A stretch of 64,000 bases of DNA from Actinomycetes bacterium (GCA_035506535.1 DATJPE010000063.1:227903-291902), one strand, 5' to 3'; counted from the first letter of the stretch, positions 31,076-44,933 are shown. Numbers and translations: made by a program. Notes: generated by a model not told the origin, from the sequence alone.

Positions 31076-31984
31076 TCATGGGACGCGTTCCCTGTCCTGC
31101 TTGGCCGCTCTGGCCGTTCGCAGCCGCTGGACACCGAACACCAGCGCGCCTCCGACGATGGCTGCGGCGAGAGCGATCGCGACCCGGTTCTGGCTCGAGT
31201 CGGTCGGCGAGCCGGACGCGGTGTTCGAGTCGTTCCCGGCTGCGACCGCCGCGGACCCAGCCCCGCCGGAGGCGGCGGCAGCCGAGTGGCTCACGGCACT
31301 GTGTGAAGACGCGGTCACCGACGTCTTCGAGGTCTTGGCCTGAGCGCCTTCGCCCTTGACGGACACCGACGGGGCGGCGGACGGCAGCTTCGAGGAACCC
31401 AGCACCGCGGTCTCCAGGGAGACGCCCTTGCCGACGTTGCAGGCGACGCTCGCGCCCTTGACCACGTGCCAGGTGTTGCCGGTGACCTGGATGACCGTCG
31501 CCGGATAGGGAGTGGTGAGCGGTGGGGTGTTGGCGTTCGAGAAGTACATCCGCACCTGGAGCAACCCGTCCCACTGTGGTGGCGCCTGGCTGGTCAACGA
31601 GACGAGCGGCGCATCCCCGTAGGTCGCTTGGGCGATCGGGTGCTTGTTGTTGGTGTACGTCGACGCCGCGGTGAACTGCTTGCCGAACCACTCGCCGGGA
31701 TCGACGTCCTTTCGTGGCACGAAGACCCCGAGCGTCGCCTTCCCGAACTTTCCGGTGTATCCGGCGGGCGTCGCCACGCTGGAGATGGCCGTCCACACGA
31801 AGGGCACCGCGGTCAACGACCCGGAGGTGACGGCGTGGCCCTTCGCGTCGCAGAAGGCGATGCCGCCCTGCCAGTTCGGGTCCTTGAAGGGGATGTTGTC
31901 GGCCGCCGCGGAGCCGACCGAGAGCCAGGCACTGATCAGCGAAGTGATGCCAAGGACGCCGAGCACGGCGAGCGAGCGCTTCAC
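31076..31984 (-). CDS. Secreted protein 'D' (302 aa): signal peptide, divergent copy of domain X, and a C-terminal TM anchor with a basic tail.
   Basis: 'VKRSLAVLGVLGITSLISAWLSVGSAAA'. Then 'FKDPNWQGGIAFCDAKGHAVTSGSLTAVPFVWTA', which matches the PPWEPD...LFDS.G..VTSG.L..VPFV pattern. C-terminus 'VAIALAAAIVGGALVFGVQRLRTARAAKQDRERVP'. The start overlaps the stop of the upstream gene. Confidence 0.55.
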   Translation of the reverse strand: MKRSLAVLGVLGITSLISAWLSVGSAAADNIPFKDPNWQGGIAFCDAKGHAVTSGSLTAVPFVWTAISSVATPAGYTGKFGKATLGVFVPRKDVDPGEWFGKQFTAASTYTNNKHPIAQATYGDAPLVSLTSQAPPQWDGLLQVRMYFSNANTPPLTTPYPATVIQVTGNTWHVVKGASVACNVGKGVSLETAVLGSSKLPSAAPSVSVKGEGAQAKTSKTSVTASSHSAVSHSAAAASGGAGSAAVAAGNDSNTASGSPTDSSQNRVAIALAAAIVGGALVFGVQRLRTARAAKQDRERVP

Positions 31985-33123
31985 GGCCGGCCTCCCGGAG
32001 TGAGGACGGGCTCGCGCGACGCCGAGCCTCCCGTCGGGGGGCTGAAGTCGCCGGGGAGGTGCCTGCGCCGGCGTCTCCAGAACCAGCCGAGGCCGATCAC
32101 CACGAACAGCCCGACCACCAGCACCCATGGGATGGCCCAGAAAGTCACCGCCGCGGTCACCGGCTCGAGCCCGGGATCGACGTCACCGGGTGCCGCGGCC
32201 GCGTCGACACGGACGTGCGCGGTGAGGCGGCCCTGCGGCCGTACGCCGTGCACGTACGCCACCTCCGGGTAGGAGGCCCCGGGCAGGAGCAGGGGCAGGT
32301 CCGGCAGTTTGACCAGCAGCGCTTTGCCGAACGGGCCCTTCACCCACACTTGCTGGGATCCGCCGAGCTTGACGTTTCCCCCGTTGTGGACGACGAAGTG
32401 GACGGTGACGGTGCCTCGGGTGACGGGGTTGAGCGATCCGCCGTACGTCGCGCGCAGGCCGTGGATGGACAGGTTCGGGTGCAGCGGGCCGGACACGCGG
32501 AGGAACACCCGGGAGGCGGTCCGCTGGAGCAGCGTCTCGCGCTGACCGGACTTCGAGATCGCGATCGAGGACAGCGACGCGATGATGCCTCCTGCGTAGT
32601 CACCCGGAGGTGCGCCGGCGGGGACGCGCAGGGTCAGCGGGATGATGACCGCGCTGGGCCCCTTGACGGTGCGCGCCGGCACGCGGACGGTCGACGGACC
32701 GCTGAGAGTGATCCACCTCCCGAGGTCCTTGGGTGGGTCCGTCGGGGAGGCGAGCGCGAAGCCCCCGCTGGCGTCCGCGAAGGCTTGCACCGGATAGACG
32801 CTCAGGAGCAGCGGCCGGGTCGAGGCGTTGAGCACCGCCACTTCGTCGGTGAGCCGGGCGCCAGGTGTCGCCTGGTAGGTGAACGTCGGGCGACCGTCCT
32901 GCTTGTGGTGAGAGGCCGGCGCGACGCCGAAGGTGGCGACGAACTGGCCCTTGCCGGGAGCCGGTGACCCGACCGCGCCTTGCGAGGAGGCAGGGGAGGG
33001 ACTCGACGAGGGGCCCGAATCCGTGGCGACGGCATCAGCCATCGGCGAGGCCACGGCCGTGAGGAGACAGAGCGGGAGCGACAGGAGCAGCACGCGTCGG
33101 GCGCGTGCCCGGAGAGCGGACAT
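31981..33123 (-). CDS. Cell-surface protein with signal peptide and C-terminal TM anchor plus poly-Arg tail; DUF916/CscA-like topology.
   Basis: 'MSALRARARRVLLLSLPLCLLTAVASPMADAVA' signal. About 300 aa of beta-rich ectodomain. C-terminal 'VTFWAIPWVLVVGLFVVIGLGWFWRRRRRHLP'. Its position directly upstream of WxL-like genes parallels CscA. Sequence-level DUF916 membership is not verified. Confidence 0.45.
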   Translation of the reverse strand: MSALRARARRVLLLSLPLCLLTAVASPMADAVATDSGPSSSPSPASSQGAVGSPAPGKGQFVATFGVAPASHHKQDGRPTFTYQATPGARLTDEVAVLNASTRPLLLSVYPVQAFADASGGFALASPTDPPKDLGRWITLSGPSTVRVPARTVKGPSAVIIPLTLRVPAGAPPGDYAGGIIASLSSIAISKSGQRETLLQRTASRVFLRVSGPLHPNLSIHGLRATYGGSLNPVTRGTVTVHFVVHNGGNVKLGGSQQVWVKGPFGKALLVKLPDLPLLLPGASYPEVAYVHGVRPQGRLTAHVRVDAAAAPGDVDPGLEPVTAAVTFWAIPWVLVVGLFVVIGLGWFWRRRRRHLPGDFSPPTGGSASREPVLTPGGRP

Positions 33124-33172
33124 GGTCTTGGTGGTTTCCGTTCGCGAGGTGGCGGCCCGCGGACCGCCGGAG

Positions 33173-33198
33173 CGGGGCCGAGCTAGCGCCCGGCCCCG
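33173..33198 (-). terminator. Weak hairpin (8-bp GC stem) about 40 nt downstream of protein A.
   Basis: CGGGGCCG agctagcgc CGGCCCCG, between the stop at 33236 and the next start at 33123. Confidence 0.3.
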
Positions 33199-33235
33199 CC
33201 CGGTGGCCTCAGCCGCCGAACGTGGTGTTCGGAGT

Positions 33236-35044
33236 TCAGCCGACGGTGAAGACGATGGTTCCGTTGTAGGTGCCGTTGATGGTGTTGGTCGGGGCGTTGA
33301 TGGTCAGGACCCCGTGCGCCTGCAGGGTTCCGTTGCCGCCACCGGTGGTGGTGGCGAAGGTGTGCACGCCCTTGGCCCCGCCGGTTCCCGTGCCCGTTCC
33401 GGGCTGGACACCGGCCAGTGCCGCGTTGTCGGTGTAGCGGACAACAGTTGCGGAGTTGCTCTTCGCGTCGGTGGCCCACCCGGTGAGGCCCACGTTCTGG
33501 CCGTCGATGACGTTGTTCGTCCCGGCCGGGCCGGCCGCCGGGCCGGTCAGGTCGGAGGCGTTCAGCGTCGCCGTCCAGTTCGGGTCACCGGCCAGCGTGC
33601 TGGTGATGGTGAGGTCCGGACCGCTTGCGGCCGGGAACTGGGCCGACGTGGTCAGCAGCGAGCCGTCCGCCGCGAGCTGCATCGCGGGCAGGACGAACGG
33701 GTTCGTCGCGGTGTACGGCGTGGTGATGGTGATGTAACCGGCGCTCACCGCCACCTGGATGCTCTGGGTGTCGGAGCAGGACTGCCCGGCCGGGTAGGCG
33801 GTCGGGTCACCCGGGCAGGTCTGGGCACCGAGGTGGAAGGTCACCGCGGCGCTGGTACCGGTCCCGAAGCTTCCCGTCCCGATGTAGCTCGCCACCACCG
33901 AGTGGTCGCCGACGGGGCTGGTGCCGCCGTTCAGCGCGGTCGTAGTGAAGGAGAAGTTGCCCGAGGAGTCCGGCCCGGTGAGAGTGCCGGCGAGCGGGGT
34001 GGTCGACCCGTCCGCGAACAGCGACAGGGTGCCGGTCAGGGCCGGCGAGCCGGCAGCGGCGCTCACCTGACCGGTGAAGGTCTGGGTCGTGAACGCGGTC
34101 GTGCCGCTCGTGCTGGCGCGTGCCAGCGTGACCGTCGGGATGATCAGTGGCGGACCGACGTGCACCGTCACCGTGCCCTGCGAACCCTGGACCAGCGTGC
34201 CCGCGGTCGGAGTGAACACCGCCTTGTAAGCGTGGTCCGTACCATTGGTCACCGCAGGAGGCGTGGTCGTCGTCGTGTAGGTGCCTGTCCCGGAGGTGAC
34301 CGCCTGCGAGCTGCCGATCGGTGTGGTTCCGTCATAGAACTGCAGCGTTCCGTTGCTCGCCGGGGCGATCGTGGCCGTGAGCGTCACCGTCGGCGGCGTC
34401 CCGGTGAACGGACCGGGCGGGTTCGCGGTCAGCGTGGTCGTCGTGGTGGTGATGGACGGGTAGACGAGCGACCACGTGCCGGCCGAGGTGTTCACCGAGA
34501 TGTCCGCCGCCCAGAACTGCCCCGTGGAGACGCCCGGGCCGGAGTCGTACAGCCGCAGCTGGTAGATCCCTGCGTATCCCGCAGTGGTGTCGCTAGTTGC
34601 ACCGCCGATGAAGCTGGCGATGTTCCCGTCGGTCGCGCCGAGGGTCACCACCGGGAACTGGAAGCCGGTGCTCGACGTGCCGGTCAGCGGCGCCGGGGCG
34701 GTGCTCGACGGGAAGTTGGTCGAGGCCGAGGCGCTGCCGGTGTACCAGGCCGTCGAGTCCGGCTTGGTGTGGTCGGGCGCCGCGAAGACGAGGCTGGCCT
34801 TGGTGGCGCCGGCCTGCTTCGCCGACGTCGCTGCCGCGTAGTCCGCGATGTGGTTGAGGTTGGTCCCGCCGGTGAGGACGTTGCCGGCGGAGTCGTACAG
34901 GACGAGGCTGCCCTGGGAGTTCGGGTCCGGCTCCCACGGCGGGGTGGTGGCCGCGTTCGCGGCACCGGCTCCCGCGGCGAGCGTCGCGCCGATGATCGCG
35001 ACGGCGGCAGCCCCCGCGATCAAGGGCCTGATCGTGCGCTTCAT
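33236..35044 (-). CDS. Secreted protein 'A' (602 aa): signal peptide, domain X, Thr-rich Ig-like middle region, C-terminal WxL-like domain.
   Basis: 'MKRTIRPLIAGAAAVAIIGATLAAGAGAANA'. 'TTPPWEPDPNSQGSLVLYDSAGNVLTGG' (domain X). The C-terminal about 250 aa are paralogous to protein B and end '...NTINGTYNGTIVFTVG', with 'GLTGWATD' in the first WxL-like position. Confidence 0.6.
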   Translation of the reverse strand: MKRTIRPLIAGAAAVAIIGATLAAGAGAANAATTPPWEPDPNSQGSLVLYDSAGNVLTGGTNLNHIADYAAATSAKQAGATKASLVFAAPDHTKPDSTAWYTGSASASTNFPSSTAPAPLTGTSSTGFQFPVVTLGATDGNIASFIGGATSDTTAGYAGIYQLRLYDSGPGVSTGQFWAADISVNTSAGTWSLVYPSITTTTTTLTANPPGPFTGTPPTVTLTATIAPASNGTLQFYDGTTPIGSSQAVTSGTGTYTTTTTPPAVTNGTDHAYKAVFTPTAGTLVQGSQGTVTVHVGPPLIIPTVTLARASTSGTTAFTTQTFTGQVSAAAGSPALTGTLSLFADGSTTPLAGTLTGPDSSGNFSFTTTALNGGTSPVGDHSVVASYIGTGSFGTGTSAAVTFHLGAQTCPGDPTAYPAGQSCSDTQSIQVAVSAGYITITTPYTATNPFVLPAMQLAADGSLLTTSAQFPAASGPDLTITSTLAGDPNWTATLNASDLTGPAAGPAGTNNVIDGQNVGLTGWATDAKSNSATVVRYTDNAALAGVQPGTGTGTGGAKGVHTFATTTGGGNGTLQAHGVLTINAPTNTINGTYNGTIVFTVG

Positions 35045-35146: not shown

Positions 35147-36454
35147 TCACGGCCCGAACTGGGTGAAGGCGTACGTCGGGACGACGCCCGCGGCGGAGAT
35201 GAGCGACTGCGCGGAGCTGGTGGCGAAGTACGGCGCCCCGCCGGGCCCGTACGTCGTCCCGCCGATCGTCACGCAGCCCGTGGTGTGGCCCGCACCGGAG
35301 CACGGGTTGTAGAACAGCGTGCGCACCCAGTTGAGCGTGCCGCCGGGCTGGAACACCTTGGTGCTGTTGATGTCAGCGTCCCGGAAGTACAGGTAGAGGC
35401 TGCGGTTGATGTTGAACAGCGAGCCCGACTTCGGGGTCCCGGTCGTCCAGTACTTGACGTTCGGGGTCAACGTGGTGTTGCCGGTGCACACGCTGGAGTA
35501 GCCGACGCAGCTCGGGTCCTTGAAGTAGCCGATCCCCGACCCGCCGTCGTTAGCGGTGCCGTCGCTGAGCTTGCCGAGGTAGAGGTTGAGCCGCCCGCTG
35601 GACATCGGCTCGATGGCGTCCGTCGGAGCGCCGGACGCGTCGATCGCCTCGGGGTCGTTCTCCTCGACGTTGGTGACGCAGCTGCCGGGTGTCGTCACAC
35701 CGATCGCCGACAGGAACGACGTGCGAGTGCCGGAGCCGATCTGCGGCAGCAGCGGCTTGATCGTGTCACTCGAGGTCCCACCGAGGGTGGGGTCGTTCCA
35801 CGTCGTGACCGAGCAGTTGTAGATGGCCTGAAGCTGTGTCGTGGACAGCGCCACCGCGTTGGTCGTCGACGAGCTCAGCATCGCCAGGCCGTCCGTGCCG
35901 ACCGTGATGCTGTCCATCGTGTTGCCGCCCGACCCTCGGGCCGAGGACGCGCGGGAGAAGTCCGCCAGGTGCTTGGTGTCGGCGACCAGGAAGTTGAACC
36001 CCGCACCGGAACCGTTCGGTCGCTGCACCGGCTGGGTACCGGCGCGCAGGACGATCGTCGGGTTCAGCGTGCAGGGGACGTCGCCCGTGTGGGTCGTGTT
36101 CTGGTTGCCGGTCCCCTGGGTGGCTCCGGTGCCGGGTGCGCAGTTGTTCGTCGCGCTGTTGCCCGGCGTGTTGCCCACGCCCTGGGGGCTGTAGGCCAAC
36201 CGCGCGTTCGCGTCGGCGGTGGCGTCGAAGCTCACCAGTTTGTTGGCGTTGCCGAGGGTGTTGTAACCGGTGTCGCCGAGGTGGTCCCCGTCGGCGACGA
36301 AGTCGACGAGATTCTGCAGCGTGTCGGATCCGACCCCGACGACGTCCTTGCTTGACGGTGCGTAGTCGGCCTGTGCGGCCGTGGTCGTCAGAGCGAGCGA
36401 CGCGGTGATCACACCGACCGTCGCCGCGCCGAGCAAGACCTTCTTGCGTCGCAT
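35147..36454 (-). CDS. PstS-family periplasmic phosphate-binding protein paralog (type 2 PBP), secreted.
   Basis: ATG at 36454 ('MRRKKVLLGAATVGVITASLALTTTAAQA'). 'VGVGSDTL', 'LSTTQLQAIYNCSVTTWNDP', 'IGSGTRTSFL' parallel PstS motifs ('LSGQTLAKIFTNKITNWDDP', 'GSGTSF'). The upstream 49 aa of the ORF are rejected. Confidence 0.6.
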   Translation of the reverse strand: MRRKKVLLGAATVGVITASLALTTTAAQADYAPSSKDVVGVGSDTLQNLVDFVADGDHLGDTGYNTLGNANKLVSFDATADANARLAYSPQGVGNTPGNSATNNCAPGTGATQGTGNQNTTHTGDVPCTLNPTIVLRAGTQPVQRPNGSGAGFNFLVADTKHLADFSRASSARGSGGNTMDSITVGTDGLAMLSSSTTNAVALSTTQLQAIYNCSVTTWNDPTLGGTSSDTIKPLLPQIGSGTRTSFLSAIGVTTPGSCVTNVEENDPEAIDASGAPTDAIEPMSSGRLNLYLGKLSDGTANDGGSGIGYFKDPSCVGYSSVCTGNTTLTPNVKYWTTGTPKSGSLFNINRSLYLYFRDADINSTKVFQPGGTLNWVRTLFYNPCSGAGHTTGCVTIGGTTYGPGGAPYFATSSAQSLISAAGVVPTYAFTQFGP

Positions 36455-36629
36455 GTGCAGGTCCCTTCCCGAAGTGGCAGGTGGAGCGCCCGTAGGCTCT
36501 CGGGTCCAGGTCGACGCGCACAGGCGTCCTGCGCTAACGCGAGATGAACCTCGGGCTGCCATCGGCTCGCATTCGGGCACAAGGGATCGCCGGTCCAACA
36601 ACGGGTGAACGAGGCCTCACGTGCGGGCG

Positions 36630-37598
36630 TCACATGAGGTTCGGCATCAGCTGGACGGCCACCGAGGTGACCCCCCAGAGGCAGGCCAGCAGGGCGGGGA
36701 CACCCACCACCCAGGTCTGCCAGGTGCCCCAGTAGACCCACGAGACGACGTACGTCGATGCCACGGCGACCAGGAGGAACAGCCACAGCACCAGCTGCAC
36801 GAGGACGCTGGTGTCGATGCTCATCGCCTGTTCTGCTGCCGGGACCGCGGCCGGACGACCGGGTGGTGCCGGGACGGACGTGCCGGCCAGGTCGGCGTCG
36901 ACGTAGACGACGCCGGTCGGGGCCCACACCGAGCGCCAACTCGCACCCTCGGCGCTGACCAGGGTCAACCGCCCATGCCCCGGCTGCACCGGCTGGGGAA
37001 AGCGGTCCCCGGCCCGCCTGATGTCGATGACGCGGTAGGTGAAGCGGCCCTGCCCCGTGACGACCGCGATCGCGTCCCCGCGGGCGAGGGTGCCGACGTT
37101 CTCGAACGGTCCCCCGAAGGTGCTCTCCCGGCCGTAGACGACACTGACGCCGGCCTGGCCCGGCAGCGGGGTGTCGCGACGGTGCCCGGGGCCGGCGATC
37201 AGGTCGCCGGACGTGGTGCCCTCGACGACGACCAGGTCGTGCAGCTCCAGGGCGGGGATGCTCAACAGGGCCACCGGCGCACCCGGGCGGATCAGTCCGC
37301 CCAGCGGCGCGGTCTCCTCGGCCAGCTGCTCGCGCAGTGTGTCGTAGCCAACGTGCTGGTCACGCCACTCCTGGAAGGAGCTCAGGACGACCCCGTAGAT
37401 CACCGCCCAGGCTGCGACCACCGCGGTGCACACGATCACGCCGGTGACGACCCGGCGGCGTGGAGTCGGTCGCGGACGGGCGGGCAGCCGCAGCCTCTTC
37501 GGCAGGCGCACGTGGACGCGCCGCCGCCGCCTGGCCTCGGGGACGACGTCGGGGGGATCCTCGACGACGGTCACCGGCGACCGAGCCCGCTGTTCCAC
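36630..37598 (-). CDS. Sortase-fold protein with catalytic His and Cys substituted (probable pseudo-sortase). N-terminal TM plus two C-terminal TM helices.
   Basis: Aligns residue-for-residue with the bona fide SrtE at 20208-21032: 'LPGQAGVSVVYGRESTFGGPFENVGTLARGDAIAVVT' vs 'LPGEVGNFAVAGHRATNGQPLANIPRVTVGSYVYVRT' (His to Arg), and 'GRLTLVSAEGASWRS' vs 'ARLTITTCNPRWAS' (Cys to Ala). Starts within or at the end of the upstream 909-aa gene. Confidence 0.6.
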   Translation of the reverse strand: MEQRARSPVTVVEDPPDVVPEARRRRRVHVRLPKRLRLPARPRPTPRRRVVTGVIVCTAVVAAWAVIYGVVLSSFQEWRDQHVGYDTLREQLAEETAPLGGLIRPGAPVALLSIPALELHDLVVVEGTTSGDLIAGPGHRRDTPLPGQAGVSVVYGRESTFGGPFENVGTLARGDAIAVVTGQGRFTYRVIDIRRAGDRFPQPVQPGHGRLTLVSAEGASWRSVWAPTGVVYVDADLAGTSVPAPPGRPAAVPAAEQAMSIDTSVLVQLVLWLFLLVAVASTYVVSWVYWGTWQTWVVGVPALLACLWGVTSVAVQLMPNLM

Positions 37599-40300
37599 AC
37601 CGCCGCGACCAGCGCAAGCACCACGAGGACCAGCAGCGCCGGGAACGCCAGCGCGGCCGGCCCCGGCCGCACGCCGACCGTCTTGCCGGTGAGGACCACC
37701 GCGATCTTCGACGGACTCGGCGACGACGACGGCGACGGCTTCGGTCTGGCGGAGGAGGAGCTCGTCGAGGGCGCGGCTGCGGTTGAAGGGCTCCCCGCGG
37801 CCGACGGCTCACCGCCGGTTGTGCCGGTCCCCGCCTCGCTCGTGGTGGAGGGCGTGGGACTGACGGATGGCGTCGGCGTCGGCGTCGGGGCCGGGTCGCC
37901 GTTGACGTAGGGCACCACGCCCTGCTGCTGCTCGACGGCCTGTGCGGCCGTCCGGGTGTAGGCCGCGAGACCGGCCAGATGGTTGGCCGCGGTCATCGGC
38001 AGGTAGCCGACGGGCAGCTGCCCTTGGTCGAGACCCGGCTGCTGACCTACCCCCGCCGCGAAGCGCAGTAAGTCGGCGTAGTGCGCGGCGTCGGCGGCGG
38101 GGAGCCCCTGCGTCGGGACGTCGAGGGACAGCACGAGGATGCCCGGGTACGCCTGCTCGCCGGCCGCGCGCGTGCGCAGCGCGGCGTACGGGACCGGCCA
38201 CGTCCCGAGCTGCTTGTCTGGCTCGAGCATCGCCGCGGCGGCCCGCAGCCCGTCGTCGCTTGGTCCGACGAACGTGCGGCCGGTCGCGTCGGTGAGCGCC
38301 GTCCCGCTCCCGCTGCTGACGTGGGTCTGCAGCTGGGCGACGTTGAGCTGGTAGCGCTCCGCGTCCGCCAGAGACACCAGCCCGAGGATGAAGCGGTACC
38401 CCGGGTTCTCCCGGCCGAGCGCGACCAGCTTCTGGTTCTGCTGGCCGGCGTTCTGGCAGTTGATCTGGGAGTTGGCGATGTCGAACTGCATGTTCAGGCT
38501 GATCGTGGCCGGGTTCGACACCGGTGCGGCGACGAGCGGCAGCCAGGGGGTCGGGCTGAGCGCGAGGCACGGGTTTCCAGCCTGCAGACCCTTGGGGATG
38601 AACGTGTCCCGTAGCGGCCACGTCGAGACCGGGAGCTTGATCCCCTTGTACGCGGGGTTGACGACCATCCCCCATGGGTCGGGGCGCCCGTCGAGCCACG
38701 CACGCGCCTCCGGGTCGGCGTTGATGTAGCTGGTCAGCGCGGTCAGCACGTCGGAGTCGCTCGACATGATCGCCAGCGTCGCGGCCGGCTCGAGGTTGTA
38801 GCCGAGGCTCACGACTCCGGGGTTGAGCGCGCGGAACTCTGGGTCGTGGCCGATGTCGATCGGGTTCCCCGACAGCGCCTTGTCCTCGCTCTTCATCGTC
38901 GGGTTCGAGGGATAGGACTCGGTGAGCAGCTTGGCGAGCAGCCGCGGAGTCAGCTTGAGGTCTGGATGGACCCCGCCGCTCTGGTCGTCCACCGAATAGG
39001 CGATCGCGAACCCGCTGACGGCGACTGGCGCCTGCACCACCGGCTGGGGGAAAGGTTCGTCCGGCGGCCCGGCCTGGACGGCTGCTTCGACACTGCCCGC
39101 GCGCAGCAGGTTCTTCGCCTGCGGCTCGCTGGTCTGCACGTGCTGGAACTTGAACAGCTTGGGGTCGAGACAGAACCTCGGCGCCCACTGCTCCGTGGCC
39201 TGCGCGAGCGCCTCGGAGCCGTACAGGTAGATCGGCTGTCCGTTGCTGACCAGGTTGCAGACCCCCGCGGACGGGGCGAAGGTCAGCGGGACCGAGATCC
39301 GGTTGCGCCAGTTGGACGCGCTCCACCACAGCTCACCGCTGACCGACAGGTCCTCGCTCTCCCAGGTCCCGTAGTTGTAGTCGCCCGGTGCGTACTTGCC
39401 GGTCGCCGCGCACTCCGACTCGATGGTCGGGACCAGCGAGGGGTCGGGCGCCTCCGAGGCCGGTAGCTGCGCACCCGCGGCGTCACAGCTGATGCCCATG
39501 ATCGGGATGATCACCAGCGAGCAGGTGACCGTGTCCGAGCAGCCCATGGACGCGTTGGAGTCCACCGTCTGCACCACGAACTTGATCGAGCCCGCCCCGG
39601 TCTTGTCGCTCGCGCCGTACGTCGTGTTCCCCGGCTGCAGCGACTCGTCCGCGTTGGCCGCCTCGGGGGCCATGCCGGCGCAGCCGAGGGAGCCGCCCGG
39701 GTAGACGGTGCCGTTGGCGGCCACGAAGGGGATCCAGTGCTGCACGCCGGCGTCCGAGCCGGCGCACGCCTTCGGCAGCGGGCTGGGCTCGCCGACCTTC
39801 TCGGCGCGGTCGGCCGTCGTGGCGTAGCGATCCATCCGGTACGGGGGGTAGTTGAACACGTAGTCGGACTGGAAGCGTTCGGCGGGCGTCTGGGTCCAGC
39901 AGGTCTGCGGTGACAGCCGCTTCGAGGCCGGCACCGACGTGCTGTCGATGCCGCGGCACTCCATGACGACGACGGGGTACTCCTGCTGCGCGGCGAGCGC
40001 GGAGTTCTGGTCGCCCACCAGCCCGCCGGTCGGGTGCGCGCCCGACCAGCTCACGTTGATCGTCTGCCGGTCGCGAAGCTGCTCGGTGTCGTCGACGTGA
40101 ACGGTGACGCTACGGCTGTCGACCGGCACGTCCTGGCCCGCCACGAGGTTCACCCGGTCGATGGTCTTGGTCTTGGCGAAGCCGGTGTCGGCGGAACCGG
40201 CCGCCCGGGCCGTACCGGCCGACGCCGGCAACGCCAGCCCCGCGGCCGCGAGGAGCGCGACCAGCGCGAGGCCGAGCCTTGACGGCAGCTTCCGCGTCAT
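37571..40300 (-). CDS. Large secreted protein (909 aa): signal peptide, Cys-rich N-terminal region, central PstS-like PBP-fold region, Pro/Thr/Ser linker, C-terminal TM anchor.
   Basis: The ATG at 40300 overlaps the pstS stop (ATGA). 'MTRKLPSRLGLALVALLAAAGLALPASA'. 'YLYGSEALAQATEQW', 'LTPRLLAKLLTESYP', 'VAVSGFAIAY' echo PstS 'IQGSGSSWSANAVNQW', 'LSGQTLAKIFTNKI', 'AIGYDEYSY'. C-terminus '...PTPTPTPSVSPTPST...ALLVLVVLALVAAVWNSGLGRR'. The N-terminal 460 aa of the 1369-aa ORF-track entry are out-of-frame overlap with pstS and are rejected. Confidence 0.6.
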   Translation of the reverse strand: MTRKLPSRLGLALVALLAAAGLALPASAGTARAAGSADTGFAKTKTIDRVNLVAGQDVPVDSRSVTVHVDDTEQLRDRQTINVSWSGAHPTGGLVGDQNSALAAQQEYPVVVMECRGIDSTSVPASKRLSPQTCWTQTPAERFQSDYVFNYPPYRMDRYATTADRAEKVGEPSPLPKACAGSDAGVQHWIPFVAANGTVYPGGSLGCAGMAPEAANADESLQPGNTTYGASDKTGAGSIKFVVQTVDSNASMGCSDTVTCSLVIIPIMGISCDAAGAQLPASEAPDPSLVPTIESECAATGKYAPGDYNYGTWESEDLSVSGELWWSASNWRNRISVPLTFAPSAGVCNLVSNGQPIYLYGSEALAQATEQWAPRFCLDPKLFKFQHVQTSEPQAKNLLRAGSVEAAVQAGPPDEPFPQPVVQAPVAVSGFAIAYSVDDQSGGVHPDLKLTPRLLAKLLTESYPSNPTMKSEDKALSGNPIDIGHDPEFRALNPGVVSLGYNLEPAATLAIMSSDSDVLTALTSYINADPEARAWLDGRPDPWGMVVNPAYKGIKLPVSTWPLRDTFIPKGLQAGNPCLALSPTPWLPLVAAPVSNPATISLNMQFDIANSQINCQNAGQQNQKLVALGRENPGYRFILGLVSLADAERYQLNVAQLQTHVSSGSGTALTDATGRTFVGPSDDGLRAAAAMLEPDKQLGTWPVPYAALRTRAAGEQAYPGILVLSLDVPTQGLPAADAAHYADLLRFAAGVGQQPGLDQGQLPVGYLPMTAANHLAGLAAYTRTAAQAVEQQQGVVPYVNGDPAPTPTPTPSVSPTPSTTSEAGTGTTGGEPSAAGSPSTAAAPSTSSSSARPKPSPSSSPSPSKIAVVLTGKTVGVRPGPAALAFPALLVLVVLALVAAVWNSGLGRR

Positions 40301-42006
40301 GACTGCCTCCTGCGTCGACGGGAGAGGTAGACCGCGAGGATCGGCGGAAGGACGATCAGCGCGAGGATCTCCAGTGCCGCGACCGATCCGAGCACCGACG
40401 TGAGGTTCTGCTGGCGGTAGCCGGCGAGCTGGGTGGGAACGCCGGTCACTGGGTCCGCCGCGGCCGCCACCTGGGTGTCGACCACCTGACCGGTGTCCGG
40501 GTTCACCGACGGGCTGGCGCCCGTCGAGCCGGTCACCGCCGTCGTCCCGCTCTGGCCGGTGCCCGTGGACGACGACGCGGCCGTCTTCGCCCCGCCAGAC
40601 GTCGCAGTGCTGGACCCCTTCGTGGCCGTCGACCCGCTCGACGTGGTGGAGCCCTGTCCCGGGGAGGAGGTCTGCGGGGCCTTGCCGTTCCTGGGGTTGC
40701 CGTTGGCGATGCCCGCGTTGGCGTCGCAGGGCCCGGCGCCCGACTTGTCGCACGCGGGTGGCTTGGGGGCGATCTCGGCCAGGTAGTTGCGGTTCGGCTG
40801 GCCGGCGATGAACGTCGGGTTGTGGCAGGTCGACACGTTGCGTTGCGTGAGGTCCACGCCCGGGTCGGCCGTCTTGAGCTTGGCCGTCTGCGCGAAAGAG
40901 GCCTGGACGAGGTTGATCGGCAAGGGCGAGTAGCCGATCGGGCCCATTTCCGCCTGGCCCTGGCATACGGAGTAGTAGAGGAAGTCGGCGAGCGTCTGCC
41001 GTTTCGCGGTCGTCATGCGCGGGTCGGTCGGTGACGTTGGAATGATCATGTACGAGTACGACGAGATGGCGTACGTCCTGGGGTCGGGGTTCGTGTAGAC
41101 CTGGTCGAGGTTCTGCAGCAGGTAGTCCTTCGACGACTTGTCCATGTTGATCTGCGCCTTGGTGAGTGCGACCGCGACGTTGTACTGCGTGGGCGCCGTG
41201 AAGTAGCCCGCGGCGTTCTCGACCTTGGCCACTGGGAAGTTCTTCGCGAGGGCATAGGAGTACTCGTCGTAGCCGATCGCCCCGTTGGCGGCGCCCGAGG
41301 AGATGAAGTTCATGACCCCGTCGGAGCCGTTCTGGGCGATCTGCCCGCCCTTGCGCGGGAAGTACTCGGTCAGACCGGACGTGCCGAGGAACGGCCGCCA
41401 GATCGAGGGGTACTGCTTGTCCAGGTAGCGGGTGAACTGCGCGGTCGAGCCGGAGCCCTCGGAGTGGACGACCGGGATGATGGGCAGGGACGGCAGCGCA
41501 TGGCCGTTGTTGTCCGCCGTGATCTCGGGGTCGTCCCAGTTGGTGATCTTGTTCGTGAAGATCTTGGCCAGCGTCTGGCCAGACAGCCGGAGGTTGCGCA
41601 CCAGCTGACCGGCCACCTTGATCTGGTACGGGAACGCCGTCCCGCCCGCCACGATCGGCAGGTAGGCGTACGGCCGGCACTGCGGCGTGCAGGGCGTGTC
41701 CGCCTCGCCGGTCACCGGGTCCTTGCCCTGGTAGCCGATGTCACTGACCGCGAAGTCCGTCGTGCGGTAGGCGAAGTCCTTGCGCCCGATCGCCGAGCCG
41801 CTCGCGGTGAAGACGACCTGCAGGCCGTTGGCCTGGACGTCGGCGATCCACTGGTTGACGGCGTTGGCGCTCCAGGACGAGCCCGACCCTTGGATGAGGG
41901 CGTGGCTCGCCGCCGCGTCCGCCGGAGCGGACCCGAAGAGCAGGCTCACCAGCACGCTCACCACCGCTGCCGCGACGGTGAGCAGGGGGTATCGGCGTCG
42001 GTTCAC
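40297..42006 (-). CDS. pstS: Phosphate ABC transporter substrate-binding protein PstS, atypical: non-lipoprotein signal peptide, about 200-aa Gly/Ser/Thr-rich C-terminal extension and a C-terminal TM anchor.
   Basis: 'ALIQGSGSSWSANAVNQW', 'SGSTAQF', 'GAIGYDEYSYAL' are PstS motifs. No Cys in the signal peptide ('MNRRRYPLLTVAAAVVSVLVSLLFGSAPADA'). C-terminus '...LEILALIVLPPILAVYLSRRRRRQS'. The GTG start overlaps the pstA stop (GTGA). Confidence 0.8.
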   Translation of the reverse strand: MNRRRYPLLTVAAAVVSVLVSLLFGSAPADAAASHALIQGSGSSWSANAVNQWIADVQANGLQVVFTASGSAIGRKDFAYRTTDFAVSDIGYQGKDPVTGEADTPCTPQCRPYAYLPIVAGGTAFPYQIKVAGQLVRNLRLSGQTLAKIFTNKITNWDDPEITADNNGHALPSLPIIPVVHSEGSGSTAQFTRYLDKQYPSIWRPFLGTSGLTEYFPRKGGQIAQNGSDGVMNFISSGAANGAIGYDEYSYALAKNFPVAKVENAAGYFTAPTQYNVAVALTKAQINMDKSSKDYLLQNLDQVYTNPDPRTYAISSYSYMIIPTSPTDPRMTTAKRQTLADFLYYSVCQGQAEMGPIGYSPLPINLVQASFAQTAKLKTADPGVDLTQRNVSTCHNPTFIAGQPNRNYLAEIAPKPPACDKSGAGPCDANAGIANGNPRNGKAPQTSSPGQGSTTSSGSTATKGSSTATSGGAKTAASSSTGTGQSGTTAVTGSTGASPSVNPDTGQVVDTQVAAAADPVTGVPTQLAGYRQQNLTSVLGSVAALEILALIVLPPILAVYLSRRRRRQS

Positions 42007-43091
42007 TTGGCACGGTCCCTGGCGAGGAAACGGGTGATGGCGAACAGGACGAGGACGAGCAGCAGCAGGAGCGCCGCCGCGCCGTAGCCCCTCGCGATGT
42101 ACAGCGGCTCACCGCTGCGCACCGCGGAGAAGATGAACAGCGGGAGGGAGTTCATCGGCTCGCTGAAGGGGTTGGCGTTGAAGAAGGTCGACGCGCCCGA
42201 GACGATGAGCAGCGGGGCCGTCTCCCCGGCGATGCGGGCGATGCCGAGGATCAGCGACGTCGCCATCCCGGCCTTGGCGGTCGGGAGGACGACGCGTCGT
42301 ACGGTGTCCCACTGCGACGCGCCCAGCGCCAGGCCGGCCTCGCGCAAGCCTCCCGGCACCACGCGCAGCACCACCTCGGCGGAGCGGGCGATGATCGGCA
42401 GCATGGTGACGGTGAGGGCGACCGACACCGCGAAGCCCGTCCGGGGAAAGCCGAACCCGATCACGAGGGTGACGTAGACGAACAGGCCGGCGAGAACGTC
42501 GGGCAGCGCCGTCATCGCCTCGACCACGGTCCGGACCGTGCGCGAGAGCCGGCCCCCCACCTCGGTCATGAACACGGCGGTGCCGATCCCCAGCGGCAGC
42601 GCGAACAGGGTCGCGATCCCGACCTGGATCGCGGTGCCCACGATGGCGTGCAGCACCCCGCCCTGCGTCAACGGTGAGGTCGGCCGCACGCCCGACATGT
42701 CGTCACGGAAGAAGTTGAGGTGGTGCAGGGCCGGCCAGCCCTTGACGAAGACGAACACCACCGTGCTGGTCAGCGCCAGACCAACGGTGACGGCCGCGCC
42801 GGTGACCACAGCGGCCGCCAGTCGGTCCCGCACGGTCGGCCACGGGTTGGAGATCCGGGACACGAGGGTGTACATGAGCAGGAAGACCAGGTACCAGCTC
42901 ACGACGAACCCGACGACGCCGCTGAACGGCAGCACCCGCTCGAACAGGAGCCAGACGAGGGAACCCGAGCCGACGATGCTGCCGGCGACCGACGCCCGGT
43001 CGTCGAGCGTGCGGGCACGCAGCGGTCGTGGGATCTCGACGGGGGCCTCCGTGTCGACCTCGGCGGCCTCCTGGTCCACCATCGCCGTCAT
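42003..43091 (-). CDS. pstA: Phosphate ABC transporter permease PstA.
   Basis: 'ILGIARIAGETAPLLIVSGAS' matches the PstA EAA-loop region ('AIARIAGETAPLLFTA' in E. coli). ATG 'MTAMVDQEAAEV' at 43091. The 5' part of the 631-aa ORF is rejected. Confidence 0.85.
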   Translation of the reverse strand: MTAMVDQEAAEVDTEAPVEIPRPLRARTLDDRASVAGSIVGSGSLVWLLFERVLPFSGVVGFVVSWYLVFLLMYTLVSRISNPWPTVRDRLAAAVVTGAAVTVGLALTSTVVFVFVKGWPALHHLNFFRDDMSGVRPTSPLTQGGVLHAIVGTAIQVGIATLFALPLGIGTAVFMTEVGGRLSRTVRTVVEAMTALPDVLAGLFVYVTLVIGFGFPRTGFAVSVALTVTMLPIIARSAEVVLRVVPGGLREAGLALGASQWDTVRRVVLPTAKAGMATSLILGIARIAGETAPLLIVSGASTFFNANPFSEPMNSLPLFIFSAVRSGEPLYIARGYGAAALLLLLVLVLFAITRFLARDRAK

Positions 43092-43102
43092 CTCGGATCT
43101 CC

Positions 43103-44119
43103 TCAGATCTCCGTCGCCGCGCCGCTGCGGCTTCGGTTGACGAAGATGGCAGCGACCGTGTTCACGCCCAGGGTGATGACGAACAGCACGAAGCCGGCCG
43201 TGAGGAGTGCGGAGAGCTGGGCGCTCGTGGCCTCCCCGAAGCGACCGGCGATGAGCGCCGAGGTCGTCTCCGTGCCGACCGTGAGAATCTTGATCTTGAT
43301 GTCGAACGCCGGCGAGATGATGAGCAGGACGGCGATGGTCTCCCCGAGCGCGCGCCCGAGCGCCAGCATGGTGCCGCCGATCACCCCTCCACGTCCGAAG
43401 GGCAGCACGACCGCTCGGATCACGCCCCACCGCGTCGCGCCGAGCGCGTACGCCGCCTCGCGCTCGCCGACCGGCGCCTGCGCGAAGACGCCTCGCATGA
43501 CGGCGCACGCGAGCGGGATCACCATCATCGACACCGCCAGGCCCGCGATGAACGCGGAGGCGGTGTACTGCGACTGCGCCCACGAGGCCGCCCGCGGGTC
43601 GGTGTCCACGGCGAAGACCGGGATCCAGCCGAGGTACTCCGACAGCCACCGCGCGACCGTGATGGCGTGCGGTTGCAGGAGGAAGAAGCCCCAGAGCCCG
43701 AAGATGATGCTCGGGACGGCAGCCATCAGGTCGATGAGCGAGGTCAGGGTGGCCTGCAGCCGCGGCGGCGCGTACTCGCTGATGTACAGCGCCGTCAGCA
43801 GCGCCAACGGGAAGCCGACGGCGAGGGCGACCAGGGCCACCTCGACGGTCCCCACGAGCACCGCGGAGATGCCGACGATGTCCCGCTCGGGCTGCCACTG
43901 GCTCTGGGTGAAGAAGTGGATGCCGTACCGGCGAAGCGTGGGGATCGCCTGGTAGCCGAGGAACAGCCCGATGGCGCCGGTGAGGACCAGCACGAAGGAG
44001 CCGATCGCCCGTACGGTCCCCCGGAAGACGCTGTCCTTCGCCGGCCGCGCCGGGTCGATGTCCCGGGGGACGTCCGGGCCCTCGGCCGACGGCCAGAGGT
44101 GCTCAGCCGAAGCGACCAT
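43103..44119 (-). CDS. pstC: Phosphate ABC transporter permease PstC.
   Basis: '[19 protein letters not shown]', '[13 protein letters not shown]', '[16 protein letters not shown]' correspond to E. coli PstC 'ELLAAIPSIVYGMWGLF', 'AAVMRDVFEQTP', '[11 protein letters not shown]'. Start overlaps the pstB stop. Confidence 0.85.
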
Positions 44120-44933
44120 GGACGTAATCGCTGGTTCGGGGGTCGCGGGGGTTGCCGAAGATCTGCTCGGTGGAGCCGGCCTCGACGATCCCGCCCGGCG
44201 TGCCCTGCTCGGCGAGGAAGAACGCGCACTGCTGGGAGACGCGCGCGGCCTGTTGCATGTTGTGGGTGACGATGACGATCGTCACGTCGCGCCGCAGCTC
44301 GGCGATGGTCTCCTCGATCCGGCGGGTCGACGTCGGGTCCAGGGCGGAGCACGGCTCGTCCATGAGCAGCACGTCCGGCTCGACCGCGAGCGAGCGGGCG
44401 ATGCACAGCCGTTGCTGCTGCCCTCCGGAGAGCGCACCGCCGGCGGAACCCAGCCGGTCCTTCGCCTCGGTCCACAACCCCGCCCGGCTCAGGCAGCGCT
44501 CGACGAGGTCGTCCTTGTCGTGCCTGGCGATCTTGGTTCCGGTCAGCTTGAGACCCGCCAGGACGTTCTCGGCGATCGACATGGTCGGGAACGGGTTCGG
44601 CTTCTGGAAGACCATCCCGATGCGCTTGCGGGTCTCGGTGATACGACGTCCGGCGTCATAGATGTCGACCCCGTCGAGCAGCACCTGACCGGCCAGCTGC
44701 GCCGAGGGCACCAGCTCGTGCATCCGGTTGAGGGTGCGCAGGAACGTGGACTTCCCGCACCCCGAGGGTCCGATGAGGGCGGTGACCGTCCCCGGGGGCA
44801 TGGACAGGGACACCCGTTCCAGCACCTTGTGGCTGCCGAACCACGCCGAGACCGCCACCGCGTCGAGGTGGGCGCCCCGGATCTGGCCGGTCACGTCGGG
44901 CAGGCGGATGGTCGTGTCGCTGACCGAGCTCAT
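44103..44933 (-). CDS. pstB: Phosphate import ATP-binding protein PstB.
   Basis: '[17 protein letters not shown]', '[19 protein letters not shown]', '[13 protein letters not shown]', '[15 protein letters not shown]' and C-terminal 'DYVHGRFG' are all PstB hallmarks. Confidence 0.9.

What the first reader, a model, noticed from the sequence alone, without database searches (positions are those of the whole stretch)
37571..40300. 909-aa secreted, TM-anchored protein with a PstS-like PBP-fold core, translationally coupled to pstS
The start codon overlaps the pstS stop (ATGA). After a signal peptide and a Cys-rich region (about 14 Cys, likely disulfide-bonded) the sequence shows PstS-like segments. 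'YLYGSEALAQATEQW' parallels the PstS 'IQGSGSSWSANAVNQW'. 'LTPRLLAKLLTESYP' parallels 'LSGQTLAKIFTNKI'. 'VAVSGFAIAYSVDD' parallels 'AIGYDEYSYAL'. It then ends with a PTPTPTP/Ser linker and a C-terminal TM helix. With pstS and the 35147-36454 paralog, this makes three PstS-family modules in 7 kb. The size and extra domains suggest a receptor or scavenging (phosphoester-binding?) function rather than a simple transporter-docking protein.
Basis: partly seen in the sequence, partly recalled or inferred. Interest (0 to 1): 0.6.

Follow-up and report, generated by a model that had tools for sequence, protein, structure and literature searches.

The report
Membrane-anchored PstS-derived protein, unannotated family
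[quoted passage not shown] It has lost PstS's phosphate-contacting residues and is always encoded between a PstS-like gene and a catalytically dead sortase, so it marks an undescribed accessory module of a phosphate-type transporter.

Summary
Window 37571-40300 (-) is one uninterrupted 909-codon gene. Its ATG overlaps the stop of the upstream pstS-like gene (ATGA), and its stop overlaps the start of the next gene (GTGA).

The PstS-like core is real, but curated sequence models miss it:
- Pfam PBP_like_2 scores 17 bits against a cutoff of 27. NCBIfam and PDB sequence searches find nothing.
- A confident AlphaFold model matches only phosphate-binding proteins (M. tuberculosis PstS-1, E=2e-11, TM 0.75).
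- A deeper profile-profile alignment gives 95.9% probability over 302 columns.

Only one of PstS's six side-chain phosphate ligands survives, the ligand arginine is gone, and near-invariant acidic residues sit at the old site. It is therefore probably not an ordinary orthophosphate receptor.

Residues 36-350 form a confident disulfide-rich beta domain with no structural match in the PDB.

The family is large and named 'hypothetical protein' in nearly all source annotations: 1,728 clusters at 50% identity and 391 matching stretches in species-representative genomes. The 80 best stretches are all Actinomycetota. In the loci with enough flank the gene is flanked by pstC-pstA-pstS(long) and a sortase homologue with no catalytic Cys.

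Ligand and mechanism remain inferred. I rate it a new variant of a known kind, of moderately high interest.

The parts
37571..40300 (-). Whole gene ('X909'): 909-aa secreted, C-terminally membrane-anchored protein
   Evidence: Uninterrupted ORF. Identical to a MAG protein named 'hypothetical protein'. Full-length homologues of about 900 aa.
40199..40300 (-). Signal peptide region (residues 1 to about 34). There is no lipobox Cys.
   Evidence: Hydrophobic window at residues 8-28. AF2 pLDDT is below 50 for residues 1-38. The first Cys is at residue 115.
39251..40195 (-). N-terminal disulfide-rich beta-sandwich domain (residues 36-350) of unknown fold family
   Evidence: AF2 pLDDT 89 and pTM 0.90. 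No significant PDB match by Foldseek: best E=0.013, with only a weak neocarzinostatin-like Ig sandwich resemblance. Eight conserved Cys and many conserved Arg/Trp/Asp.
37901..39250 (-). PstS-homologous type II periplasmic-binding-protein domain (residues ~351-800) with large insertions and an altered ligand site
   Evidence: Foldseek hits 1pc3 at E=2.4e-11 with target-normalised TM 0.75. hhalign Prob 95.9% over residues 354-780 against E. coli PstS 1-307. Weak Pfam PBP_like_2 hit at residues 361-459. Site residues are tabulated.
37667..37900 (-). Pro/Thr/Ser-rich linker (residues 801-878)
   Evidence: Composition S18/P16/T13 of 80 residues. pLDDT below 50 for residues 810-883.
37571..37666 (-). 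C-terminal TM helix (residues ~879-902), short basic tail (GLGRR) and stop codon
   Evidence: Hydropathy above 1.8 up to residue 890+19. AF2 helix at 881-905.
40297..42006 (-). Upstream PstS-like protein ('PstS-long', 569 aa). It has a signal peptide, a PstS domain with His at the Arg135 position, a Cys-containing extension, an S/T/G linker and a C-terminal TM with an RRRRR tail.
   Evidence: Pfam PBP_like_2 120 bits. TIGR00975 187.5 bits, below the cutoff of 205. PDB alignments. Residue counts across 75 orthologues.
42003..44933 (-). pstB (44103-44933), pstC (43103-44119) and pstA (42003 to about 43091) of a Pst-type ABC importer, in the order B-C-A-S
   Evidence: NCBIfam: PstC 238.8 bits (cutoff 196), PstA 205.4 (cutoff 193), PstB 336.3 (just under 343).
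36630..37574 (-). Downstream sortase homologue lacking catalytic residues ('pseudo-sortase'). Its GTG start overlaps the X909 stop.
   Evidence: Pfam Sortase E=5e-11. Class E sortase 65 bits, below the cutoff of 160. PDB alignment puts Arg at the catalytic His position. No Cys in the domain in 80/80 orthologues.
35147..36454 (-). Third PstS-family protein (PBP_like_2 paralogue, 435 aa)
   Evidence: Pfam PBP_like_2 39.3 bits, above the cutoff of 27. Lies directly downstream of the pseudo-sortase in about two-thirds of the loci examined, and elsewhere in the cluster or undetected in the rest.
36536..36610 (-). Two PHO-box-like direct-repeat elements (GTTCATCTCGCGTT, GTTCACCCGTTGTT) in the intergenic region upstream of the paralogue
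   Evidence: These are the only two matches to RTTCAY-N5-GTT in the 64-kb window, against 0.27 expected. The same bipartite motif lies upstream of this gene in 28 of 63 loci.
28340..35044 (-). Associated surface-protein genes: 602-aa Big_3_5 protein (33236-35044), 380-aa weakly WxLIP_PGBD-like protein with a C-terminal TM (31981-33123), ~300-aa secreted protein (31076-31984), 379-aa Big_3_5 protein (29790-30929), 463-aa protein (28340-29731)
   Evidence: Pfam. Paralogy within the set. Present in most related loci, either downstream or upstream of the core.

Best explanation
**Shown: what the protein is**
- X909 is one exported protein held on the outer face of the membrane by a C-terminal TM helix behind a flexible Pro/Thr/Ser linker.
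- Its ectodomain has two parts. The first is a disulfide-rich beta-sandwich domain with no match among solved structures (Foldseek, PDB). The second is a domain that descends from the phosphate-binding protein PstS.
- It is made from the same message as a membrane-anchored PstS variant and a catalytically dead sortase. The start/stop overlaps suggest fixed proportions. All three sit inside a Pst-type ABC importer operon.

**Inferred: what it does**
- Arg135 and most hydroxyl ligands of PstS are replaced, while the former ligand loops stay highly conserved and are now acidic (E392, D515, D517, often E363).
- X909 therefore no longer captures free orthophosphate the way PstS does. I propose it still uses its cleft, together with the N-terminal domain, to bind a different ligand.
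- My preferred candidate is a bulky, metal-complexed or polymeric phosphorus source, or a cell-envelope component.
- I propose it acts as an accessory capture or organising subunit beside the PstS-long/PstCAB importer.
- I propose the dead sortase serves as a membrane adaptor that holds the partners together.
For: **Fold and homology**
- AF2 model pLDDT 80, pTM 0.77.
- The 42 best Foldseek PDB hits are all phosphate-binding or DING proteins.
- hhalign Prob 95.9%, E=6.4e-9.

**Altered site (E. coli PstS numbering)**

| PstS ligand | X909 position | Family pattern |
|---|---|---|
| T10 | E363 | E in 55/83 |
| S38 | E392 | E or D in 83/83 |
| D56 | 410 | S/G/A |
| R135 | 512 | L/M/I |
| S139 | S516 | S in 72/83 |
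| G140 | D517 | D in 82/83 |
| T141 | 518 | V/L |

- Conservation at these positions argues for a used site, not a decayed one. G361 and W372 are 83/83.

**Operon context**
- pstC-pstA-PstS-long-X909-pseudo-sortase lie in the same order and strand in the related loci with enough flank, about 70 of those examined.
- 4-nt overlaps occur at 65/75 PstS-long/X909 junctions and 75/80 X909/pseudo-sortase junctions.
- PstC and PstA pass the NCBIfam equivalog cutoffs.

**Dead sortase**
- No Cys in 80/80 orthologues. The catalytic His position is R or K in 78/80.

**Possible physical link**
- Two X909::pseudo-sortase fusion proteins exist, P0090 and P0121.

**Phosphate link for the cluster**
- PHO-box-like 11-nt direct repeats lie upstream of the third PstS paralogue and of a surface-protein gene.
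- They match the Streptomyces PhoP DRu core GTTCAY (PMC2275107).
Against: - No ligand was tested and I could not inspect model coordinates. Site mapping rests on profile alignment plus predicted helix starts, with register uncertainty of about one residue in the S38 and R135 regions.
- E363 is only 66% conserved.
- No PHO-like motif was found upstream of pstB, so phosphate regulation of the operon that contains X909 itself is not shown.
- The PhoP identity of the motif is by resemblance only.
- The two fusions could be frameshift artefacts at the 4-nt overlap.
- PstS-long also varies at ligand positions (His/Gln for Arg135; S38 and S139 sometimes Ala), so the transporter's own substrate is not certain.
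- Complex formation with the pseudo-sortase is pure inference.
Confidence: 0.45

Rival explanations
1. X909 is still an orthophosphate-binding protein. It would be a second, low-affinity or acid-adapted receptor that feeds PstCA, using a non-canonical set of ligands (Ser/Asp/Glu accepting protons from H2PO4-).
For: PstS is the closest fold. The gene sits in a Pst-type operon. S362, S516 and the Ser-rich loop SSDSD are conserved. Known phosphate-binding proteins already show more than one site architecture, D-type and S-type (PMC13614923). Many carriers come from acidic peat or soil MAGs (titles).
Against: The ligand arginine, which the S-type SphX site in PMC13614923 also keeps (Asp-Arg-Thr triad), is replaced by Leu/Met. 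Three or four carboxylates sit at the helix N-termini that normally attract the anion. Curated PstS models do not recognise the protein.
Confidence: 0.15
2. X909 is a ligand-free structural or scaffold protein (a 'pseudo-receptor'). It would organise or space the PstS-long/PstCAB machinery and the associated surface proteins in the wall.
For: Loss of the canonical ligands. Obligatory pairing with a pseudo-enzyme. Long linker and TM anchor. Co-location with Ig-like surface proteins.
Against: The former ligand loops are among the most conserved positions in the protein (G361, E392 and D517 near 100%). This is unexpected if the cleft were unused.
Confidence: 0.2
3. The N-terminal domain is an enzyme (phosphoesterase, nuclease or polyphosphatase) that liberates phosphate next to the transporter. 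The PstS-derived domain would hold the substrate or product.
For: Many invariant polar residues in residues 40-345 (R49, R116, R142, R155, D157, R165, E107, D273, N330, near-invariant H89).
Against: No Pfam, NCBIfam or PDB similarity to any hydrolase. The weak fold resemblance is to non-enzymatic Ig-like sandwiches. No recognisable metal-binding or nucleophile motif.
Confidence: 0.1
4. X909 is a sensor. Ligand-induced closure of the PBP domain would be relayed through the membrane, via the pseudo-sortase TM segments, to regulate transport or gene expression.
For: PBP domains often serve as sensor modules (general knowledge). Tight coupling to a polytopic membrane partner.
Against: The cytoplasmic tail is only about 7 residues. 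No kinase, cyclase or DNA-binding gene is conserved in the cluster.
Confidence: 0.05

Closest known systems
PstS, the phosphate-binding protein of PstSCAB (E. coli PBP 1ixh/1a40; M. tuberculosis PstS-1 1pc3; Pfam PBP_like_2; TIGR00975)
   Same: Same two-lobe type II binding-protein fold with collinear secondary structure (target-normalised TM 0.75, hhalign 95.9%). Shared sequence landmarks: G-x-x-...-W helix 1, L-x-x-x-LAK-hh helix, DPEF/NPG turn, TSY helix, AYPG strand and GYLP end. Encoded next to pstC/pstA/pstB.
   Different: Only 1 of 6 side-chain phosphate ligands is kept. Arg135 becomes Leu/Met, and acidic residues appear at three helix N-termini. It has a ~315-residue N-terminal domain, a ~110-residue conserved insertion (residues ~528-640, DPWGMVVNP...) and two extra disulfide pairs. 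It has a C-terminal TM anchor instead of a lipid anchor. It falls below all curated family thresholds.
DING proteins / PfluDING (4f1v, 2q9t)
   Same: PstS-superfamily fold with extra loops. Matched by Foldseek at E=1e-6 to 1e-5.
   Different: Poorer structural match (target-normalised TM ~0.52). DING proteins keep the full phosphate site, including Arg and Asp. They are soluble ~40 kDa proteins without TM anchors or N-terminal domains.
S-type phosphate-binding proteins such as Synechocystis SphX (PMC13614923)
   Same: A PstS-family member in which the Asp56-type ligand is replaced by a hydroxyl residue. X909 position 410 is Ser in 56/83 homologues.
   Different: SphX keeps an Asp-Arg-Thr triad and binds phosphate at micromolar Kd. 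X909 lacks the Arg.
Membrane-tethered substrate-binding proteins with Ser/Thr-rich linkers (archaeal and some Gram-positive ABC systems; my own knowledge, not tested here)
   Same: A binding protein is held at the membrane by a TM segment and a flexible, probably glycosylated linker, next to its ABC permease genes.
   Different: Those are the transporter's primary receptors with intact sites. Here a separate intact-looking receptor (PstS-long) is encoded immediately upstream, and X909 is an additional, remodelled copy.
Class E sortases (SrtE1, 5cuw; 5uus), for the coupled downstream gene
   Same: The N-terminal two-thirds of the sortase domain aligns (profile positions 1-84 of 125; E=2e-13 to 5uus). 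N-terminal TM anchor.
   Different: No Cys in the domain. Arg/Lys replaces the catalytic His. Two extra C-terminal TM helices and a conserved ...LLPNLx C-terminus.

Membership tests
PstS / PBP_like_2 phosphate-binding proteins | Two-lobe type II periplasmic-binding-protein fold with PstS topology | tested here: met
   Foldseek against the PDB: ranks 1-42 are all PstS, PhoX, DING or other phosphate-binding proteins. Best hit 1pc3, E=2.4e-11, target-normalised TM 0.75. hhalign Prob 95.9%, 302 columns.
PstS / PBP_like_2 phosphate-binding proteins | Scores above curated family thresholds (Pfam PF12849 gathering score; NCBIfam TIGR00975/TIGR02136) | tested here: not met
   PF12849 scores 17.2 bits against a cutoff of 27, and covers only residues 361-459. 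No NCBIfam hit. Only 4 of 33 family members give even a weak Pfam hit.
PstS / PBP_like_2 phosphate-binding proteins | Conserved phosphate ligands (E. coli T10, S38, D56, R135, S139, T141, plus backbone NH of F11 and G140) | tested here: not met
   Mapped by profile alignment and helix starts: E363, E392, A410 (family S/G/A), M512 (family L/M/I), S516, V518. Only S139 is retained and there is no Arg. Register uncertainty is about one residue.
PstS / PBP_like_2 phosphate-binding proteins | Encoded with pstC, pstA and pstB | tested here: met
   Window order is pstB-pstC-pstA-pstS(long)-X909. The same arrangement is seen in about 70 related loci with sufficient flank.
PstS / PBP_like_2 phosphate-binding proteins | Binds orthophosphate and delivers it to PstCA | not testable with these tools
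   Needs binding assays or a liganded structure.
Gram-positive lipoprotein-type substrate-binding proteins | Lipobox Cys at the end of the signal peptide | tested here: not met
   The first Cys is residue 115. Anchoring is by a C-terminal TM helix instead.
Sortase-anchored (LPXTG) surface proteins | LPXTG-type motif followed by a hydrophobic segment and a basic tail, plus an active sortase | tested here: not met
   The hydrophobic segment and basic tail are present, but there is no LPXTG. The sequence before the TM is ...VVLTGKTVGVRPG, with only G872-x-T874 conserved. NCBIfam LPXTG_anchor gives no hit. The adjacent sortase homologue has no Cys in 80/80 orthologues.
DING proteins | N-terminal DINGGG motif, ~40 kDa soluble protein, intact phosphate site | tested here: not met
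   No DINGG string in the sequence. Weaker structural match than to PstS, with target-normalised TM ~0.52. The site is not conserved.

The most novel reading that the evidence does not exclude
X909, the His-variant membrane-anchored PstS and the catalytically dead sortase form a previously unrecognised, wall-spanning nutrient-capture complex of Actinomycetota. In this complex a sortase fold has been repurposed as a non-covalent peptide-binding adaptor, possibly gripping conserved pre-TM motifs or its own C-terminal LLPNL tail. A PstS fold has been repurposed, through an acidic cleft and a new N-terminal domain, to bind something other than free phosphate. Candidates are metal-bound or mineral phosphate, polymeric phosphorus or a cation, which would be passed to a Pst-type importer under Pho control.
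Probability: 0.2. Interest if true: 0.8.

Novelty: new variant of a known kind. Interest (0 to 1): 0.6.

Why it matters
**A hidden branch of a textbook family**
- PstS/PstSCAB is the textbook high-affinity phosphate system.
- This is a large branch of the PstS superfamily that current annotation does not recognise.
  - It has 1,728 clusters at 50% identity and 391 matching stretches in species-representative genomes.
  - Carriers include soil, peat and freshwater Actinomycetota, among them Nocardioides, Marmoricola, Jatrophihabitans, Acidimicrobiia and Nanopelagicales.
- Nearly all copies carry the name 'hypothetical protein'.
- The family has changed its ligand site, gained a domain with no match among solved structures (Foldseek, PDB), and become locked to a pseudo-sortase.

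**If it is a phosphorus-capture accessory**
- It would bear on how abundant uncultured actinobacteria obtain phosphorus in P-poor, often acidic habitats.

**Independent of function**
- It adds a clear case of a sortase-derived pseudo-enzyme.
- It provides a testable set of genes, because cultured carriers exist.

Tried and rejected
**Sequence-family searches**
- Pfam gave only a sub-threshold PBP_like_2 hit. NCBIfam gave nothing.
- Only 4 of 33 homologues gave weak Pfam hits.

**PDB sequence searches**
- The single sequence and the 33-sequence profile found no relevant match.

**hhalign with shallow profiles**
- First runs gave low probabilities of 19% and 3%, and global mode failed.
- The result became convincing only with an 83-sequence query and a more diverse PstS template.

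**Fold search of the N-terminal domain**
- Nothing significant was found, so the enzyme, LPMO, SOD and toxin resemblances were rejected as noise (probability up to 0.66, E at least 0.013).

**PHO-box search**
- A loose pattern over the window was not enriched: 46 matches against 41.8 expected.
- No motif was found upstream of pstB.
- Only the stricter bipartite pattern upstream of the paralogue and the surface-protein genes stood out.

**Other checks**
- BLASTP of the N-domain against the other cluster proteins found no relationship.
- Literature searches for this cluster, pseudo-sortases or PstS-like accessory proteins found nothing describing it.
- I considered a WxL/Csc-type surface cluster for the neighbours. 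Only one weak sub-threshold WxLIP_PGBD hit supports this (17 bits against 27.3), so I do not claim it.
- I considered a two-gene frameshift and rejected it.

Full report
**1. The observation**

Window 37571-40300 on the minus strand is one open reading frame of 909 codons.
- Its ATG overlaps the TGA of the upstream gene as ATGA.
- Its own TGA overlaps a GTG that starts the next gene.
- The N-terminus is a hydrophobic signal-type segment. Residues 801-880 are 59% Ser/Pro/Thr. Residues ~879-902 form a hydrophobic helix followed by GLGRR.
- There are 12 cysteines, not about 14. All 12 are at least 95% conserved across 83 homologues. Eight lie in residues 115-297 and four lie at 348, 377, 578 and 615.
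- The identical protein exists in a public MAG ('Actinomycetes bacterium', named hypothetical protein). About 120 listed homologues have the same length and cover the whole sequence. It is therefore one gene, not a frameshifted pair.

**2. Is the core PstS-like?**

Curated sequence models say no.
- Pfam PBP_like_2 gives 17.2 bits (cutoff 27) over residues 361-459 only. NCBIfam gives nothing.
- Only 4 of 33 homologues give even a weak Pfam hit.
- HMMER against all PDB sequences finds nothing.

Structure says yes.
- An AlphaFold2 model built on a 33-sequence alignment has mean pLDDT 80 and pTM 0.77.
- Foldseek against the PDB returns phosphate-binding proteins in all of the first 42 ranks.
- Top hits are M. 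tuberculosis PstS-1 (E=2.4e-11, target-normalised TM 0.75), E. coli PBP (about 1e-9), X. citri PstS and cyanophage PstS, with DING proteins further down.
- The first non-phosphate protein, a LysR effector domain, appears at E=3.5e-3.

Profile comparison agrees once the profiles are deep enough.
- With shallow profiles hhalign was unconvincing.
- With an 83-sequence query and a template of E. coli, Xanthomonas, M. tuberculosis PstS3 and four cluster PstS sequences, it gives Prob 95.9% and E=6.4e-9.
- The alignment covers 302 collinear columns, X909 residues 354-780 against E. coli PstS 1-307.
The third is not.

**3. The ligand site**

The table uses E. coli numbering. Positions come from the alignment and the predicted helix starts at 363, 392 and 517. 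Family patterns come from 83 homologues.

| PstS ligand | X909 position | Family pattern |
|---|---|---|
| T10 | E363 | E in 55/83 |
| F11 (backbone NH) | A364 | any residue possible |
| S38 | E392 | E or D in 83/83 |
| D56 | 410 | S 56, G 13, A 12 |
| R135 | 512 | L 53, M 11, I 8 |
| D137 | S514 | S in 66/83 |
| G138 | D515 | D in 62/83 |
| S139 | S516 | S in 72/83 |
| G140 | D517 | D in 82/83 |
| T141 | 518 | V or L |

- One of six side-chain ligands survives, and the ligand arginine is gone.
- Carboxylates cap the three helices whose N-termini point at the anion in PstS.
- The S-type phosphate site of Synechocystis SphX keeps an Asp-Arg-Thr triad, and the D-type site relies on a conserved Asp (PMC13614923).
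- These loops are among the best-conserved positions in the protein (G361 and W372 are 83/83). The cleft therefore looks used, but for something other than PstS-style binding of free orthophosphate.
- I could not view coordinates, so the register is uncertain by about one residue in two of the loops.

**4. The N-terminal domain**

- Modelled alone, residues 36-350 give pLDDT 89 and pTM 0.90. The domain is mostly beta with long loops.
- Foldseek against the PDB finds nothing significant. The best E is 0.013. There is only a weak resemblance to neocarzinostatin-type Ig sandwiches, with target-normalised TM about 0.55.
- No phosphatase, nuclease or phytase signal was found.
- The domain carries many invariant Arg, Trp, Asp and Asn residues, so it probably has a binding role. 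That role is unknown.

**5. Context**

Upstream genes on the same strand:
- pstB scores 336 bits, just under the 343 cutoff.
- pstC scores 239 bits (cutoff 196) and pstA scores 205 bits (cutoff 193).
- A 569-aa PstS-like protein scores 120 bits on Pfam and 187.5 on TIGR00975 (cutoff 205).
- The gene order is B-C-A-S, not S-C-A-B.
- This 'PstS-long' also has a C-terminal linker, a TM helix and an RRRRR tail.
- At the Arg135 position it carries His in 54, Gln in 11 and Arg in only 6 of 75 orthologues.

Downstream gene:
- It is a sortase homologue (Pfam E=5e-11; class E sortase 65 bits against a cutoff of 160).
- The catalytic His position is Arg or Lys in 78/80 orthologues.
- The TLxTC cysteine is Ala, Ser, Thr or Gly, and the domain has no cysteine at all in 80/80.
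- It has one N-terminal and two C-terminal TM helices, and a conserved C-terminal ...LLPNLx.

Further downstream:
- A third PstS-family protein (Pfam 39 bits) comes next.
- It is followed by Ig-like (Big_3_5) surface proteins, a weakly WxLIP_PGBD-like TM protein and further secreted paralogues.

**6. Distribution and linkage**

- A profile search of 1.84 billion representatives finds 1,728 clusters at E up to 1e-3, and 822 at E up to 1e-30.
- 391 stretches in species-representative genomes encode a relative.
- The 80 best are all Actinomycetota. They include Frankiales, Jatrophihabitans, Pseudonocardiales, Micromonosporaceae, Marmoricola, Nanopelagicales and Acidimicrobiia.
- Cultured carriers include Nocardioides ginsengisoli and N. 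endophyticus.
- In the loci with enough flank, about 70 of those examined, the order pstC-pstA-PstS-long-X909-pseudo-sortase is kept on one strand. The surface-protein block lies either downstream or upstream.
- The PstS-long/X909 junction is a 4-nt ATGA/GTGA overlap in 65/75 loci, with 4 more showing a 1-nt overlap. The X909/pseudo-sortase junction is a 4-nt overlap in 75/80.
- Two proteins (P0090 and P0121) are X909::pseudo-sortase fusions. They may be real, or they may be frameshift artefacts at the overlap.

**7. A phosphate-regulation hint**

- The bipartite motif RTTCAY-N5-GTT represents two 11-nt direct repeats, typically GTTCATCCCTCGTTCAT.
- It occurs 46 times on the gene strand of 1.48 Mb of related loci.
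- 28 of these lie within 260 nt upstream of the third PstS paralogue (28 of 63 loci). About 12 lie upstream of a surface-protein gene.
- Only 6 occur on the opposite strand.
- In the window the only two matches in 64 kb (0.27 expected) both lie in that intergenic region, at 36536-36549 and 36597-36610.
- The motif matches the GTTCAY core and 11-nt spacing of Streptomyces PhoP boxes (PMC2275107).
- No such motif precedes pstB. Pho control is therefore suggested for the downstream half of the cluster, not shown for X909's own operon.

**8. Interpretation**

- Shown: X909 is an exported, membrane-tethered, disulfide-stabilised protein. It has a domain with no match among solved structures and a PstS-derived domain. 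It is co-translated with a PstS variant and a dead sortase in a Pst-type operon.
- Inferred: it does not bind free phosphate as PstS does. It is probably an accessory capture or organising subunit for a phosphorus-acquisition module, with the pseudo-sortase acting as a membrane adaptor.
- Rivals: a non-canonical phosphate receptor, a ligand-free scaffold, an enzyme in the N-domain, or a sensor. None is excluded. The conserved cleft argues against a pure scaffold, and the missing arginine and added carboxylates argue against a normal phosphate site.

**9. Novelty**

- Source annotations name it 'hypothetical protein', with two JGI exceptions.
- No paper retrieved describes it.
- It belongs to the PstS/PBP superfamily by fold and descent. 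It fails the family's sequence thresholds and its defining ligand set.
- I therefore rate it a new variant of a known kind, not a plain new member.

Noticed in passing
window 36630-37574 (-): The sortase homologue coupled to X909 is a conserved pseudo-enzyme. It has no Cys in the sortase domain in 80/80 orthologues, and the catalytic His position is Arg or Lys in 78/80. It has one N-terminal and two C-terminal TM helices. The extreme C-terminus ...LLPNLx is conserved and is predicted to lie outside the cell, where it could occupy the dead sortase groove.
   Followed up: partly
window 40297-42006 (-): The 'pstS' is itself atypical. It scores below the TIGR00975 cutoff. It has His at the Arg135 position (His 54, Gln 11, Arg 6 of 75). 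It carries a Cys-containing extension after the PBP domain and a long S/T/G linker. A conserved pre-TM motif [PS]T.L[AE][AG]Y[RH] is followed by a C-terminal TM helix and an RRRRR tail instead of a lipobox.
   Followed up: partly
window 36536-36549 and 36597-36610 (-): Two PHO-box-like 11-nt direct-repeat elements lie upstream of the third PstS paralogue. They are the only matches in the window (0.27 expected). The same motif is conserved upstream of this gene in 28/63 related loci and upstream of a Big_3_5 surface-protein gene in about 12 loci.
   Followed up: yes
window 42003-44933 (-): The Pst-type transporter genes are in the order pstB-pstC-pstA-pstS rather than the canonical pstS-C-A-B. 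In Marmoricola and Nocardioides loci pstB lies downstream of the cluster. Nocardioides sp. 503 (L080) has a second pstC-pstA-pstS set after pstB.
   Followed up: partly
window 28340-35044 (-): A family of secreted surface proteins accompanies the cluster. The 602-aa and 463-aa proteins share a C-terminal domain (56% identity over 300 aa). The 602-aa, 379-aa and ~300-aa proteins share an N-terminal domain. Two carry Big_3_5 Ig-like repeats. The 380-aa protein has only a sub-threshold WxLIP_PGBD hit. The ~300-aa gene appears to start with a GTGA overlap on the preceding stop.
   Followed up: partly
P0090 (1118 aa) and P0121 (1211 aa), homologues from metagenomes: These are single ORFs that join an X909 homologue to a full pseudo-sortase. 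This is topologically consistent with TM-in then TM-out. It could be a genuine fusion or a 1-nt assembly error at the 4-nt overlap.
   Followed up: partly
loci L018/L063, L026/L038, L009/L035: Some genomes (Jatrophihabitans RYN_133 and two Frankiaceae MAGs) carry two copies of the whole cluster on different contigs.
   Followed up: no
window 26184-27815 (+): A 543-aa secreted protein with a Glyco_hydro_26 hit (36.5 bits, cutoff 20.2) lies just beyond the surface-protein block on the opposite strand.
   Followed up: no
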